The notes beneath the pieces are model-generated. The model ran no database searches. It was not told the DNA's origin and saw nothing but the letters and a program-made list of their open reading frames with translations. Below are positions 3,885 through 23,735 of a stretch of 29,771 nt of DNA, piece by piece (the first letter of the stretch is position 1; the number at the start of each line of letters is the position of its first letter). The stretch is from a virus (taxonomy: Duplodnaviria > Caudoviricetes): positions 1 to 29,771 of IMG/VR virus record IMGVR_UViG_3300022178_001566. One strand, 5' to 3'. The position numbers and the translations under genes were made by a program.

Positions 3885-4105
3885 TGATACCAATAATTTT
3901 AACTTTATCAATAATAGCAGTTCTCTTTATATTTTGGGGGCAATTAAATAATGCAGAGATTCAAATAGCACCTATTGTTGGGATTGTGTTCGGTGCTTTA
4001 TATTCAAGTGAAAACTTTGAAGATGAAACGGAATACATTTTGCAATGCTGTATTCTTTGTATAAGTATTCAAGTAGTATGGGCGAAACCAAATGGCTTAG
4101 ATTAG
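3884..4105 (+). CDS. Small membrane protein
   Basis: Hydrophobic N-terminal helix; TAATG coupling to helicase. Confidence 0.75.
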   Translation: MIPIILTLSIIAVLFIFWGQLNNAEIQIAPIVGIVFGALYSSENFEDETEYILQCCILCISIQVVWAKPNGLD

Positions 4106-4623
4106 TAGCCGAAAGACATCAAGAGTGGATTAAAATCGTTCATTCTTTTGGAGAGTACACTTATGCCGAAGACTTGGTACAGGAGGCGTATCTCGTTATT
4201 TTTAAATACACTACCCCTGAAAAGATTATAAAGGATGGGGTAGTTTCAAGAGGGTATATATATTTCACACTTCGTTCCCTCTACTTCCAATATTACAACA
4301 AGAAAAAGAAAGTTACCAAAGTCAGCCTTGACGATGAAGAATTTTCAATACAGATTCCCGACTTTGACCACATAGAAGAACACGAAGCATTTCATAAGAT
4401 ATGTTTGCTAGTTGATGAGGTTGCAGATACTTGGGGATGGTACGACAGAAAGCTGTGGAAACTATATTCGCAAACAGATATGAGTATGCGAAAACTAGCA
4501 GCAGAAACCAACATAAGTTGGGTAAGTATATATAATTCATTAAAACACCTTAAAGAAGATTTAAAAGATAAACTAGGCGAAGACTTCGCTCATTTTAAAA
4601 ACCAAGACTATGACAGAATTTAA
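4078..4623 (+). CDS. ECF-like sigma-70 factor
   Basis: Region 2 AEDLVQEAYL...YIYFTLRSLY; region 4 HTH MSMRKLAAETNISWVSIYNSLK. Start at 4078 preferred over 4045. Confidence 0.85.
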   Translation: MGETKWLRLVAERHQEWIKIVHSFGEYTYAEDLVQEAYLVIFKYTTPEKIIKDGVVSRGYIYFTLRSLYFQYYNKKKKVTKVSLDDEEFSIQIPDFDHIEEHEAFHKICLLVDEVADTWGWYDRKLWKLYSQTDMSMRKLAAETNISWVSIYNSLKHLKEDLKDKLGEDFAHFKNQDYDRI

Positions 4624-6228: not shown

Positions 6229-6259
6229 TTGTTTATATCAAAAAAGTTTACGTAATTAG
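6229..6259 (+). promoter_or_regulatory. Possible host-type promoter
   Basis: TTG at 6229 and degenerate TAATTAG at 6253-59; followed by the same AAAACAAACA leader as other early operons. Confidence 0.35.
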
Positions 6260-8650: not shown

Positions 8651-8851
8651 GTTGAAGAATTTTATTTCCTTGCGCTTTTAGATATTAGAGAAGGAGTTTC
8701 ATTACAAGAGTTAGAGGACGTGATACAACTCTACGAGGATGTAGAAGATTACGAAGCCTGTGCAGGGATTTTAAAAGCAGTAAACGAAGCAAGATACGAT
8801 ACAATAAACAACTTAATAGAAAAAACAAATGGAGATACTACAAGAGATTAA
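8636..8851 (+). CDS. Small helical protein with UVR-like motif
   Basis: TTG start; YEDVEDYEACAGI.KA. Confidence 0.75.
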   Translation: MNKDIVEEFYFLALLDIREGVSLQELEDVIQLYEDVEDYEACAGILKAVNEARYDTINNLIEKTNGDTTRD

Positions 8852-9302
8852 ACACCTAGTTGAAAAAGAACTACAACTAAACCTAGACAACAAAACACGC
8901 AAAAGAGAATACGTATTCGCTAGAGCAGTTTATTACAGATTATGTAGCGAGTTTACAAAACACTCATTAAACGCAATAGGAGAAACAATAAACAAAGACC
9001 ACGCAACTGTAATACACGGGCTAAAAATATTCAAATCGTTTTTAGATTTCCCTAATATGTATCAAGCTGAAATAAACGCATACGATAACATACACCCTAC
9101 ACTAAAAAAGATTAGTACCGAAATAAAAGAAGAAGCACCTGAAACAATACTGGAAAGATTTGCAAGGGAAAAGCAGGAAATGACAAACGAAAGAAACAAC
9201 AGTATAGAGAAATACAATACACTAAAAGACAAACACAATAAGCTACTCAAATACTTTAGTAAGTTTGAGAAAAACGCTTATGAGAAATACGCTGAACTAT
9301 GA
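8829..9302 (+). CDS. DnaA C-terminal (domain IV) HTH protein with coiled-coil tail
   Basis: TRKREYVFARAVYYRL...SLNAIG....KDHATVIHG signature. Confidence 0.88.
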   Translation: MEILQEIKHLVEKELQLNLDNKTRKREYVFARAVYYRLCSEFTKHSLNAIGETINKDHATVIHGLKIFKSFLDFPNMYQAEINAYDNIHPTLKKISTEIKEEAPETILERFAREKQEMTNERNNSIEKYNTLKDKHNKLLKYFSKFEKNAYEKYAEL

Positions 9303-10867: not shown

Positions 10868-10884
10868 AAAAATATTCAAAAAGT

Positions 10885-10914
10885 TTTGTAGTTTATAAAA
10901 TGTTTATATCTTTG
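10885..10914 (+). promoter_or_regulatory. Host-type promoter of accessory island
   Basis: TTTG(10885-88)-N18-TATCTTTG(10907-14). Confidence 0.75.
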
Positions 10915-10929
10915 AACAAAACAAACGAT

Positions 10930-11067
10930 ATGAGTTATTTAGTAGATGAGTACGAAAGTTATTTAAGAAGCATTGGAGATACCGATGACAAGCCCTGCGA
11001 AACTTGTGGGCTACCGACAGAAAAAGAGTTTTGTTCGGGTTTATGTTTTGAAGCATATTTACATTAA
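10930..11067 (+). CDS. 45-aa zinc-finger protein
   Basis: CETCGLP....FCSGLC (CxxC...FCSxxC). Confidence 0.8.
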   Translation: MSYLVDEYESYLRSIGDTDDKPCETCGLPTEKEFCSGLCFEAYLH

Positions 11068-11079
11068 AAACAAATTATT

Positions 11080-11247
11080 ATGAAGATTCAAGAAACACAG
11101 GAGTATCGATTAGTTAAACAATTAACCGCAAAAGAAAACAAGGTTAGATTAATCAAAGCAGCATTTGCTGTAACAACTTTTATGGTTGTAGCCTATGGAG
11201 GTATGATAGCAACAATGGACTTATTGTTATATTTATGGAAGGCTTAA
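11080..11247 (+). CDS. 55-aa membrane protein
   Basis: MKIQETQEYRLVKQL...AAFAVTTFMVVAYGGMIATMDLLLYLWKA. Confidence 0.75.
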   Translation: MKIQETQEYRLVKQLTAKENKVRLIKAAFAVTTFMVVAYGGMIATMDLLLYLWKA

Positions 11248-11468
11248 AACAATGGCAAATCAATAAGGCTTGTTGGGAACAAAAGTTCTTTGTAGTTCAG
11301 CGACCAATGGGAATAGGATGGTCTAAGAAACCTTTTCCTGTACAGCTGATAATGGATATGCAAGGACAATTAAAACTAGGGAAAGACAGCTACGAACAGA
11401 ACAGCAAAGCCTTAGAAGAAAAAATTAATGAAATGTATTTGTATATGTACAAAAGATTTGTATCTTAG
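11235..11468 (+). CDS. Hypothetical protein
   Basis: 77-aa ORF overlapping the previous gene. Confidence 0.8.
   Translation: MEGLKQWQINKACWEQKFFVVQRPMGIGWSKKPFPVQLIMDMQGQLKLGKDSYEQNSKALEEKINEMYLYMYKRFVS
11438..11468 (+). promoter_or_regulatory. Host-type promoter at the end of the 11235 ORF
   Basis: TTTG(11438-41)-N19-TATCTTAG(11461-68). Confidence 0.6.
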
Positions 11469-11471
11469 TGA

Positions 11472-11546
11472 AAGATTAGTTTTTGATTTTAGTTTTTTAA
11501 TTAGTAATGCGGAATAGGGAGGTGGAAACACTTCCCTTTTCTTTTT
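11472..11546 (+). ncRNA. Candidate U-rich small RNA (~75 nt)
   Basis: Lies between a promoter motif and a terminator, no credible ORF; composition inverted relative to the A-rich + strand. Confidence 0.45.
11516..11546 (+). terminator. Intrinsic terminator with GAAA tetraloop
   Basis: AGGGAGGTG-GAAA-CACTTCCCT then TTTCTTTTT. Confidence 0.9.
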
Positions 11547-11573
11547 ATACATAATCCACTTAATTTTATTGTA
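11547..11573 (+). promoter_or_regulatory. Late motif copy 2
   Basis: ATACAT-N14-TATTGTA, 5 nt before ATG 11579. Confidence 0.7.
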
Positions 11574-11578
11574 TTAAT

Positions 11579-22642: not shown

Positions 22643-23191
22643 ATGGCTTGTGATTTAACTAGAGGTAGAAAAGAACCTTGCAAAGACGTTGTAGGTGGTC
22701 TACGTGCTGTTTATTTTACAGATTTCGGAGATTTCGGAACTGTAACTCAAACGGACGATGAGATTACTGATATGTCAGGAACTTTTACTGCATACAAATA
22801 TGAACTAAAGGGAAATAGCAGCTTTGAACAAGCTGTAACTTCTAGCCGTGAAAACGGAACTACTTTCTTTGACCAAACTTTAAATATTACATTTAAAAAA
22901 TTGTCTAAAGAAGATAACAAGGAGATTAAACTTCTTGCTTATGGAAGACCACACGTAGCGGTTGAGGACTATAACGGAAATGTATTCGTTATGGGATTAG
23001 AACACGGTGCAGAGGTAACAGGAGGAAGCATAGCTACTGGAGCAGCAATGGGAGATTTGTCAGGATATACTTTGACATTTAATGCCCAAGAATTGAAACC
23101 AGCTAACTTTGTAGCTAGTCCAACGGCAGCAGACCCATACGCAGGTATGACAAGTGCTACTGTAACGGTTACAGAAGGAACAAACGCTTAA
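22643..23191 (+). CDS. Putative major tail tube protein
   Basis: 182 aa; MAC...C...GG N-terminus, ENGTTFF.Q.L, TG....D.SGYTLTF; biased codon use. Confidence 0.7.
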   Translation: MACDLTRGRKEPCKDVVGGLRAVYFTDFGDFGTVTQTDDEITDMSGTFTAYKYELKGNSSFEQAVTSSRENGTTFFDQTLNITFKKLSKEDNKEIKLLAYGRPHVAVEDYNGNVFVMGLEHGAEVTGGSIATGAAMGDLSGYTLTFNAQELKPANFVASPTAADPYAGMTSATVTVTEGTNA

Positions 23192-23207
23192 ACAAATCTG
23201 TTTGTGT

Positions 23208-23240
23208 TAAAGAGGGGGCTTTATTGCCCTCTTTTTTTTT
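23208..23240 (+). terminator. Intrinsic terminator
   Basis: AAAGAGGG...CCCTCTTT followed by T-run. Confidence 0.85.
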
Positions 23241-23249
23241 GTAAAAATG

Positions 23250-23280
23250 TTTGGTATATCAAAAATAAATATTACTTTTG
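23250..23280 (+). promoter_or_regulatory. Perfect Bacteroidota primary-sigma promoter
   Basis: TTTG(23250-53)-N19-TACTTTTG(23273-80). Confidence 0.8.
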
Positions 23281-23281
23281 A

Positions 23282-23351
23282 AGTGATAAGACCTCAGAAA
23301 TTTTATCACTAAAGGGCAAATTCAGTTATAGCTGGTTTGCTCTTTTTTTTT
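23282..23351 (+). ncRNA. Candidate two-hairpin small RNA (~65-70 nt)
   Basis: Hairpin AGTGATAAGA-CCTCAGAAA-TTTTATCACT then terminator; own promoter. Confidence 0.6.
23311..23351 (+). terminator. Intrinsic terminator
   Basis: AAAGGGCAAATTCAGT-TATA-GCTGGTTTGCTCTTT then T-run. Confidence 0.85.
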
Positions 23352-23361
23352 GCTTTATATT

Positions 23362-23388
23362 TAACAAAAATCATAAAGATTTATTGTA
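23362..23388 (+). promoter_or_regulatory. Late motif copy 6
   Basis: TAACAA-N14-TATTGTA, 5 nt before ATG 23394. Confidence 0.8.
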
Positions 23389-23393
23389 TATAT

Positions 23394-23735
23394 ATGATTG
23401 TACTTCAAACATCAGATAGCGACCAAACATTTAGTTTTATTCCACGTTCATACGTGAGTGGAACAACGTACACTATCAAAATAAAAAACGAATCAACCAA
23501 TACAGAAGTATTTAGTAGCACCGCTACAACTTTTGCAGAAGTTGAATATTATTATCAATATACAAACACTTTTACTTTAGTAGAGGACACAATGTACACC
23601 CTTGAAATAAAAGCAGGAAGTGAATTAATATTTAGAGATAAAATATTCTGTACAAATCAAACTATTTCATCATATAGCGTAAACAATGAAGAATATACGG
23701 TACAAAGTGAAGAAAACGAATTTATATTCCTATAA
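23394..23735 (+). CDS. Small beta-rich structural protein (possible head closure)
   Basis: ATG 23394 (MIVLQTS...); the track's TTG 23337 lies inside a terminator. Confidence 0.7.
   Translation: MIVLQTSDSDQTFSFIPRSYVSGTTYTIKIKNESTNTEVFSSTATTFAEVEYYYQYTNTFTLVEDTMYTLEIKAGSELIFRDKIFCTNQTISSYSVNNEEYTVQSEENEFIFL

What the first reader, a model, noticed from the sequence alone, without database searches (positions are those of the whole stretch)
23250..23351. Insulated transcription unit without a credible ORF inside the structural module: candidate phage small RNA
Seen: terminator (23208-40), then a perfect host-type promoter TTTG-N19-TACTTTTG, a 10-bp hairpin with CCUCAGAAA loop, a second terminator, and then a late motif that restarts the operon. 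The only ORF is a 9-codon GTG frame (23283-23312). Inference: an early ~65-70 nt RNA, for example a decoy for a defence protein, an antitoxin mimic or a base-pairing sRNA. The AGTGATAA-N13-TTATCACT dyad over the start site could instead be an operator.
Basis: partly seen in the sequence, partly recalled or inferred. Interest (0 to 1): 0.75.

Follow-up and report, generated by a model that had tools for sequence, protein, structure and literature searches.

The report
Phage-captured satellite antisense RNA gene
An aquatic phage carries, as a 111-base insert among its virion genes, a copy of a likely small RNA gene that small integrated mobile elements hold backwards in front of their excision and replication genes; that RNA is predicted to switch those genes off, so the phage likely uses it to silence an element that would otherwise parasitise it.

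Summary
The anatomy is confirmed, and it is a 111-112 bp insert ('moron'): 83 of 96 distinct versions of this intergenic region are empty, and contigs join across the gap. The unit has no Rfam match. It recurs in related phages, where changes pile up in the 9-nt loop (4 of 5 differences over 201 bases in one contig). It also occurs in three excisionase-AAA ATPase mobile elements (two in Flavobacteriales genomes with integrase and primase-like gene), always counter-oriented 60-80 nt upstream of the excisionase, with compensatory stem changes. There it is predicted to lie inside the operon's leader; in all three, covering the complementary stretch refolds the leader so that the start codon is buried, like plasmid pSK41 RNAI. 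The window's hairpin and loop are identical to those of one element (L134), while its terminator differs. The phage has no target of its own. Best reading (0.62): a captured ~65-nt antisense repressor, made early, that silences a matching satellite in trans, with the loop as key. Not shown: expression, a shared host, satellite status, and partners for the other loop variants.

The parts
22643..23191 (+). Upstream conserved virion-module gene (182 aa; 'tube' unverified); left flank of the slot
   Evidence: (phrog_19091, unknown function)
23209..23240 (+). Resident intrinsic terminator of the upstream late transcript; present in empty-site relatives
23229..23241 (+). 13-nt direct repeat, copy 1 (3' end of terminator 1): left junction of the insert
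   Evidence: (joint 23228 to 23340 with 13 ambiguous letters)
23250..23280 (+). Bacteroidota sigma-A-type promoter: -33 box 23250-53, spacer sharing 11 nt with the phage promoter at 6234, -7 box 23273-80 (start of the identity to element L134)
23285..23351 (+). Predicted small RNA, about 65 nt (start G23285 inferred from the -12..-5 position of the -7 box; could be 2-3 nt earlier)
   Evidence: no transcript data
23282..23310 (+). Hairpin 1: invariant stem among phage copies; compensatory changes in element copies
23292..23300 (+). Hypervariable loop, identical to that of element L134; predicted recognition loop
23311..23351 (+). Hairpin 2 and U tract: terminator; in the elements its complement is the stretch predicted to keep the excisionase start codon open
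23340..23352 (+). 13-nt direct repeat, copy 2: right junction of the insert
23363..23388 (+). Late-promoter-like motif AACA-N16-ATTGTA, resident in empty-site relatives
23394..23735 (+). Downstream conserved 113-aa gene before the portal; right flank of the slot

Best explanation
The 111-bp insert is a copy of a likely antisense RNA gene that sits counter-oriented in front of the excisionase operon of small Bacteroidota mobile elements; the phage likely captured it, would make the ~65-nt RNA early from a host-type promoter, and the RNA is predicted to pair with the matching element's leader and bury the excisionase start codon, which would block excision and replication of a likely satellite. 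Shown by sequence: the insert and its empty site; homology from the -7 box to the U tract; position and orientation in three elements; loop identity with L134; loop variation among sister phages; no opposite-strand gene in the phage. Predicted: the transcript and its start; the leader promoters; the refolding switch; loop-first recognition. Inferred: direction of capture, a shared host, that the elements parasitise this phage, and that loops are swapped or selected to match different elements (the phage encodes an ERF annealing protein and a RecE-like exonuclease).
For: Insert: 83 of 96 distinct intergenic versions are short, 13 carry inserts, 2 of them this unit; contigs in runs X13, X11, X18 join across it. 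Element copies: L134 93% over 76 nt and nothing else shared with the window; a model built without them hit L582 (38.3 bits, E 9e-7) and L578 (27.1 bits, E 5e-4), both counter-oriented just upstream of the excisionase. Covariation: 8 of 21 pairs change on both sides, 2 of 500 shuffles; cells paired 88.7%, 0 of 500. Promoter-like boxes on the excisionase strand lie beyond the RNA gene in 3 of 3 elements, at -182, -185 and -205/-162. Switch: unpaired probability of codons 1-3 falls 0.34 to 0.16, 0.28 to 0.12 and 0.36 to 0.05; 3, 5 and 2 of 100 shuffled leaders do as much. Specificity: window hairpin top against the L134 leader -24.5 kcal/mol, equal to the cognate RNA; L110 -8.5, L086 -5.0. Loop clustering: 4 of 5 and 3 of 6 differences in 201 bases (binomial 2e-5 and 2e-3). 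Precedent: pSK41 RNAI and pT181 RNAI (PMC5703833, passages).
Against: No discrete transcript: the one RNA run that covers the unit gives a 774-nt contig crossing terminators. Only one loop match exists (window = L134); the three other phage loops have no known element. L134 is a 1.7-kb contig without integrase, and its leader promoter is only near-consensus. Only 2 of 26 genomic relatives of its AAA gene carry the RNA. L578 scores only 2 bits above a plain terminator (24.9 bits). No window DNA matched the two genomes that hold the elements (0 of 2), so no host link. Satellite status is weak: a DUF5681-like ORF below cut-off in L583, none in L584, no att repeats found, and no similarity to the phage gene before terL. 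The predicted free leader is only partly open (0.28-0.36), and with the second L582 promoter the lowest-energy fold is closed in both states. Three of the six aligned sequences are near-identical.
Confidence: 0.62

Rival explanations
1. The unit is an antisense gene of the elements, but the phage copy is a passenger picked up at a permissive slot and does nothing useful; loops differ because they are unconstrained or come from separate captures.
For: The slot takes many unrelated inserts (13 of 96); the unit is rare (4 IMG/VR contigs); loops are the least constrained part of any hairpin; no host link.
Against: Promoter, stem and terminator are intact in all phage copies, including one with 59% identity in the flanking gene; 40 nt of promoter and both stems show no change where the loop shows 3-4, which neutral drift does not give; the -33/spacer is phage-type, so the gene was rewired.
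Confidence: 0.14
2. The RNA is shared cargo of phage and elements aimed at the host: a trans-acting sRNA or a decoy for a defence or RNA-binding protein, with a loop matched to the host.
For: Early host-type promoter, insulated unit, placement like solitary-repeat RNAs (PMC10651486, passages); identical loops could reflect one shared host.
Against: No CRISPR-repeat, abiF or antitoxin family in Rfam; no array or excess of the dyad in 401 host-family genomes; no host copy in 151 or 401 genomes; fixed position and the covarying leader switch in three elements are unexplained by cargo.
Confidence: 0.12
3. The hairpin mimics a tRNA anticodon arm and decoys an anticodon nuclease; the variable letters are the 'anticodon'.
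For: Loops fit pyrimidine, U or G, three variable letters, then AA, which recalls the anticodon loop (recalled consensus).
Against: The invariant U of anticodon loops is missing in 3 of 6 loops; loops are 6-9 nt; the AA is explained as the UU of a U-turn-type motif on the target side, present in 6 of 6.
Confidence: 0.05
4. The dyad is a DNA operator or recombination site over the start site, or the unit encodes the 9-codon peptide.
For: The outer pairs lie upstream of the predicted +1; the stem is invariant in the four first homologs; the phage has a DnaA-C-type HTH protein.
Against: Spacing between half-sites is 12, 13 or 15; arms change sequence while keeping pairs in L582 and L578; the dyad is no commoner than its reversed control in hosts; the outer pairs are expected in the longer complementary leader; the frame is broken in L110 and L086.
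Confidence: 0.07

Closest known systems
pSK41 RNAI (staphylococcal RepA_N plasmids) and pT181 RNAI with its pre-emptor (PMC5703833, passages)
   Same: Short two-hairpin RNA counter-transcribed to the leader, about 60-100 nt upstream of the start; binding frees a stretch that then sequesters the translation start; an upstream pairing prevents this in the free leader.
   Different: No sequence relation tested or expected; target is an excisionase-AAA-primase operon of an integrative element, not a plasmid Rep; the window's copy has left its target and sits in another replicon, a phage.
SviR of the Vibrio cholerae satellite PLE (bioRxiv 10.1101/2022.04.08.487710, abstract)
   Same: Small RNA acting across genomes in a phage-satellite conflict, lowering translation.
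   Different: SviR is satellite-encoded and hits the phage; here the direction is reversed and the RNA is the element's own regulator, fully complementary to its target.
RNA anti-CRISPRs, Racrs (PMC10651486, passages)
   Same: A phage intergenic unit with its own promoter that copies an RNA part of the opponent's system.
   Different: Not a CRISPR repeat; predicted to act by base-pairing, not by soaking up proteins.
RteR of Bacteroides CTnDOT (PMC3809561, passages)
   Same: Small RNA of a Bacteroidota mobile element near the excision genes that represses in trans.
   Different: RteR is 90 nt, lies downstream of exc and acts on the tra operon; no Rfam hit here.
P4 CI RNA and P1/P7 C4 RNA (recalled; no paper read)
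   Same: Loop-specified RNA control of satellite or prophage genes.
   Different: Those are processed from the same strand as their targets; no Rfam match.
Phage morons (term recalled); Nonlabens phage P12024S gp04
   Same: Promoter-payload-terminator unit between conserved virion genes; the cultured relative has a small reversed ORF in this slot.
   Different: Payload is non-coding.

Membership tests
Phage moron | Own promoter and terminator, inserted between two genes that are adjacent in relatives | tested here: met
Plasmid-type countertranscript antisense RNA (pSK41/pT181 RNAI) | Short RNA with two stem-loops, own promoter and terminator | tested here: met
   predicted fold and covariation
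Plasmid-type countertranscript antisense RNA (pSK41/pT181 RNAI) | Encoded opposite the leader of the replication operon (element copies) | tested here: met
   3 of 3 element copies by sequence; leader promoters predicted
Plasmid-type countertranscript antisense RNA (pSK41/pT181 RNAI) | Target encoded in cis at the same locus (phage copy) | tested here: not met
   no opposite-strand ORF or promoter reading through it; no loop target above shuffles in the phage
Plasmid-type countertranscript antisense RNA (pSK41/pT181 RNAI) | Binding induces a stem that hides the translation start; upstream pairing prevents it | tested here: met
   computed only: 3 of 3 leaders, 2-6 of 100 shuffles
Plasmid-type countertranscript antisense RNA (pSK41/pT181 RNAI) | Controls a plasmid Rep initiator | tested here: not met
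   operon is HTH_17 excisionase, AAA_25, DUF6371 beside an integrase
Plasmid-type countertranscript antisense RNA (pSK41/pT181 RNAI) | RNA is made and represses in trans with loop specificity | not testable with these tools
   contigs only; pairing energies
PICI-like phage satellite (for the elements L134, L583, L584) | Integrase, excisionase, helicase/primase module | tested here: met
   L583 and L584 complete; L134 truncated
PICI-like phage satellite (for the elements L134, L583, L584) | Packaging gene such as small terminase, and att repeats | tested here: inconclusive
   DUF5681 23.5 bits under cut-off 27.5; terS family hit only in the more distant L521; no att repeat found
PICI-like phage satellite (for the elements L134, L583, L584) | Induced and packaged by a helper phage | not testable with these tools
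   no host link
RNA anti-CRISPR (Racr / solitary repeat unit) | Similarity to a CRISPR repeat of the host | tested here: not met
   no Rfam repeat family; at most 3 dyads per genome in 401; SRUfinder repeat set not available
Type III / AbiF antitoxin RNA | abiF motif or tandem 33-50-nt repeats upstream of a toxin gene | tested here: not met
   no Rfam hit, single unit, no toxin gene downstream
P4 CI / P1 C4 RNA | C4-family structure, same strand as target leader (recalled) | tested here: not met

The most novel reading that the evidence does not exclude
Lytic flavobacterial phages steal the antisense off-switch of their satellites and broadcast it at infection, and swap a 4-5-nt loop key to keep up with satellite variants: an RNA anti-satellite weapon and a one-loop arms race, in a slot that also carries several other uncatalogued structured RNAs.
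Probability: 0.45. Interest if true: 0.88.

Novelty: new variant of a known kind. Interest (0 to 1): 0.76.

Why it matters
It would be a phage counter-measure against satellites made of nothing but the satellite's own repressor RNA: plasmid-style incompatibility used as a weapon between replicons. The known RNA in such conflicts runs the other way (SviR). The loop would be a readable barcode that pairs uncultured phages with the elements that parasitise them, and a 111-bp cassette with a three-way natural loop series makes the test cheap. It also defines an uncatalogued antisense switch for Bacteroidota integrative elements, in a phylum where translation control without Shine-Dalgarno sequences is an open question (PMC7366714, passage). 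My searches for prior description (listings and abstracts only) showed none, but the library lacks most subscription papers.

Tried and rejected
Rfam: no hit at gathering score in the window, six slot loci or five element/phage loci; E-value mode gave only terminator-like scores of 23 bits or less. Loose pattern scans gave mostly chance hits: 46 of 50, 71 of 75, 36 of 40, 56 of 56 in GTDB; one search covered 3 of 64 parts and gave none (L242 is coding). Bacteroidales promoters followed by a similar dyad (L430, L462, L424) lack the terminator and score under 29 bits. Named phages and plasmids: no match. Host copy: none in 151 and 401 genomes. Targets within the phage: best duplex -15.5, within the range of 15 shuffled loops, -12.4 to -17.1. 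More elements among 232 genome slots around G907 and G868: none new. RNA runs X19, X20: contigs only; X19 holds the L110-type unit inside a 774-nt contig, X20 does not cover it; no evidence for or against a discrete RNA. Partial holders with small shares were not used. DnaA-box reading of the half-site (box recalled): one base short, not repeated in the phage. The structure job for the upstream gene did not finish, so 'tube' stays open. Chimeric assembly of L134: rejected, both flanks and five terminator places differ from the phage.

Full report
OBSERVATION. The described parts are all present: terminator 23209-23240, TTTG-N19-TACTTTTG at 23250-23280, a 10-pair hairpin 23282-23310, a second terminator 23311-23351 and the motif AACA-N-ATTGTA at 23363-23388. 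The promoter alone is not above chance (2 matches, 1.23 expected). The fold is (z -4.25, 1 of 200 shuffles), and so is the late motif (7 on +, 0 on -, at most 4 in 200 shuffles). In Flavobacterium psychrophilum the -7 box lies at -12 to -5 (PMC9723704, passage), which puts +1 at G23285 and gives about 65 nt with a 7-pair 5' stem, predicted stable from that start but not from one base later. The window is a 29.8-kb virus record whose only named relatives for the upstream gene are Nonlabens phages P12024S and L (36%), so a flavobacterial host is likely.

THE UNIT IS AN INSERT. I fetched the best 80 loci for each flanking gene (about 1100 and 850 stretches exist, so this is a part). Of 160 loci, 149 hold both genes, giving 96 distinct intergenic sequences: 83 are short (83-134 nt: terminator plus late motif), 13 carry inserts, 9 with an ORF of 64 aa or more and 4 without. 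The closest relative, L004, lacks exactly this block; contigs in three other runs join across it, one with 13 ambiguous letters, the direct repeat at 23229-41 and 23340-52. P12024S has a small reversed ORF in the same slot. This is a moron slot.

HOMOLOGS IN PHAGES. Three complete IMG/VR pattern scans returned the same four contigs among 50, 75 and 40 hits: two identical to the window, L110 and L086. L110 has the same promoter and stems and three changes in the loop; L086, 59% identical in the flanking protein, has the unit in the same slot with another spacer, loop and terminator. An 11-kb contig of run X10 spans 23200-23400 with five differences, four in the loop; run X11 has six, three in the loop (binomial 2e-5 and 2e-3 with the loop chosen after the fact). 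The 9-codon frame is broken in L110 and L086.

HOMOLOGS IN MOBILE ELEMENTS. The metagenome scan gave three loci: two of the phage and L134, a 1.7-kb contig with an HTH_17 excisionase and an AAA_25 gene. Identity to the window starts at the -7 box, ends at the U tract (93% over 76 nt) and there is nothing else; hairpin 1 and its loop are identical, the terminator differs. I then collected 26 genomic relatives of the AAA gene and scanned them with a model built from the four sequences above. Two hit: L582 (38.3 bits, E 9e-7) and L578 (27.1 bits, E 5e-4; a plain terminator reached 24.9). Both are counter-oriented just upstream of the excisionase, as in L134, in elements with integrase, excisionase, AAA_25 and DUF6371 genes; the L578 excisionase is 44% identical to that of L134. 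The other 24 have no hit (also with the second model; some loci are cut short). Across six sequences 8 of 21 pairs change on both sides (2 of 500 shuffles) and slid controls pair 46-56% against 89%; three of the six are near-identical and the tool warns that kin can beat the shuffles. No chromosomal copy was found in 151 or 401 genomes and no Rfam family matches.

HOW IT LIKELY WORKS IN THE ELEMENT. Promoter-like boxes on the excisionase strand lie beyond the RNA gene: perfect -33 and -7 in L578, perfect -7 in L582, near-consensus in L134. The leader, 170-190 nt, would contain the whole complement of the RNA, ending 59-81 nt before the start codon. In the free leader the complement of the RNA's terminator pairs with a stretch just upstream of the start; when the complement is held single-stranded, that stretch pairs with the first codons instead. 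The three elements do this with different sequences. The unpaired probability of codons 1-3 falls from 0.34 to 0.16, 0.28 to 0.12 and 0.36 to 0.05; 3, 5 and 2 of 100 shuffled leaders fall as far. The effect is moderate, depends on the 3' length folded, and with the second L582 promoter the best fold is closed either way. This is the logic described for pSK41 RNAI (about 83 nt, two stem-loops, about 100 nt upstream, sequesters the ribosome site) and the pT181 pre-emptor (PMC5703833, passages). It also explains why the dyad reaches upstream of the predicted +1: the full stem belongs to the longer leader. A U-turn-type motif (recalled as typical of such loops) is on the target side in 6 of 6, partly by the conserved AA.

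WHAT IT LIKELY DOES IN THE PHAGE. The phage has no gene or read-through promoter on the opposite strand and no loop target above shuffles. Upstream of the -7 box the promoter is phage-type, sharing 11 nt with the promoter at 6234. The window RNA pairs with the L134 leader at -88 kcal/mol; its hairpin top scores -24.5, as the cognate RNA does, against -8.5 for L110 and -5.0 for L086. Phage against phage, loops differ and flanks agree; phage against L134, the loop agrees and the flanks differ. I infer capture from an element, early expression, and silencing in trans of an element with the matching loop. ERF and RecE-like genes could swap loops between short shared arms. That the elements are satellites is only suggested: the 15 listed members of the L134 AAA cluster lie on contigs of at most 7.6 kb; a more distant element has a small terminase hit; marine satellites with integrase, excisionase and primase are reported integrated in Flavobacteria (PMC9618062, passages). 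Against: the terminase-like ORF of L583 is under cut-off, L584 has none, no att repeats were found, no window DNA matches G907 or G868, and only one of four phage loops has a known partner. If they are not satellites, the RNA would still be predicted to keep a resident element from excising during infection.

EXPRESSION. Not shown. Two metatranscriptome runs were laid as contigs: X19 carries the L110-type unit within a 774-nt contig that crosses terminators; X20 does not cover it.

RIVALS. Passenger (0.14), host-directed sRNA or decoy (0.12), operator or peptide (0.07), anticodon mimic (0.05); see the table. AbiF RNA carries two 33-35-nt motifs before its toxin (bioRxiv 10.1101/2025.04.15.648962, passages); Racrs are CRISPR-repeat copies (PMC10651486, passages); neither holds here.

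NOVELTY. The element RNA works like a plasmid countertranscript but is not a member of those families: it controls an excisionase operon and has no Rfam match. The phage copy fails the cis-target test, which is the point of interest. The reported small RNA in a phage-satellite conflict is satellite-encoded (SviR, abstract); RteR is the Bacteroidota precedent for an element sRNA (PMC3809561, passages); PMC5415839 (passages) notes that loops carry specificity in FinP. Searches (listings, abstracts) showed no phage-borne copy of an element's antisense RNA. Earlier notes of this scan (unchecked, seen after my reading was formed) describe similar switches in other satellites, none in a helper phage; sequence and place look-ups were empty.

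VERDICT. Real, structured, mobile, uncatalogued; best mechanism 0.62; interest 0.76.

Noticed in passing
L006:4150-4410 and L158:330-560: A different ORF-less insert of about 230-300 nt in the same slot, homologous between two phages, with a GNRA-capped hairpin that changes on both sides; z -4.4 for L158; no Rfam hit.
   Followed up: partly
L017:3660-4110: An ORF-less, structured insert of about 440 nt behind a host-type promoter in the same slot (z -3.0, no Rfam hit); its first 50 nt match the 5' part of the L006 unit.
   Followed up: partly
L054:1060-1146: A third short ORF-less unit in the slot: -7 box, 9-pair hairpin from the predicted +1, linker, terminator; not matched by models R1 or R2; may be another captured antisense RNA.
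   Followed up: partly
L134:359-376 and the matching place in L578: A conserved 18-bp palindrome overlaps the -7 box of the RNA promoter in two elements and is absent from the phage: candidate operator or leader hairpin.
   Followed up: no
window 10868-11578: Three small ORFs behind a host-type -7 box (10907) and before a terminator, between terL and the next late motif: a second moron slot; no Pfam match.
   Followed up: no
window 9404, 19340, 20955, 20988, 23363, 26059: Late-promoter-like motif a few bases before start codons, suggesting near-leaderless late mRNAs; the sigma-like gene at 4045-4623 is the candidate reader.
   Followed up: partly
window 8829-9302: Protein with a DnaA C-terminal HTH domain just before the packaging genes.
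   Followed up: no
L006, L171 (reversed); L035, L137, L189: The same protein-coding inserts recur in this slot in different phages, in either orientation and stacked up to two.
   Followed up: no
L511-L531: AAA_25 plus DUF6371-type elements in 20 of 401 genomes of one flavobacterial family sample, many with long hairpins upstream of the first gene; L521 has a small terminase family hit.
   Followed up: partly
L430:2001-2035, L462:2001-2036: Bacteroidales promoters directly followed by an 11-12-pair hairpin with the same half-site, before a hydrogenase-like operon and a small gene; no terminator.
   Followed up: partly
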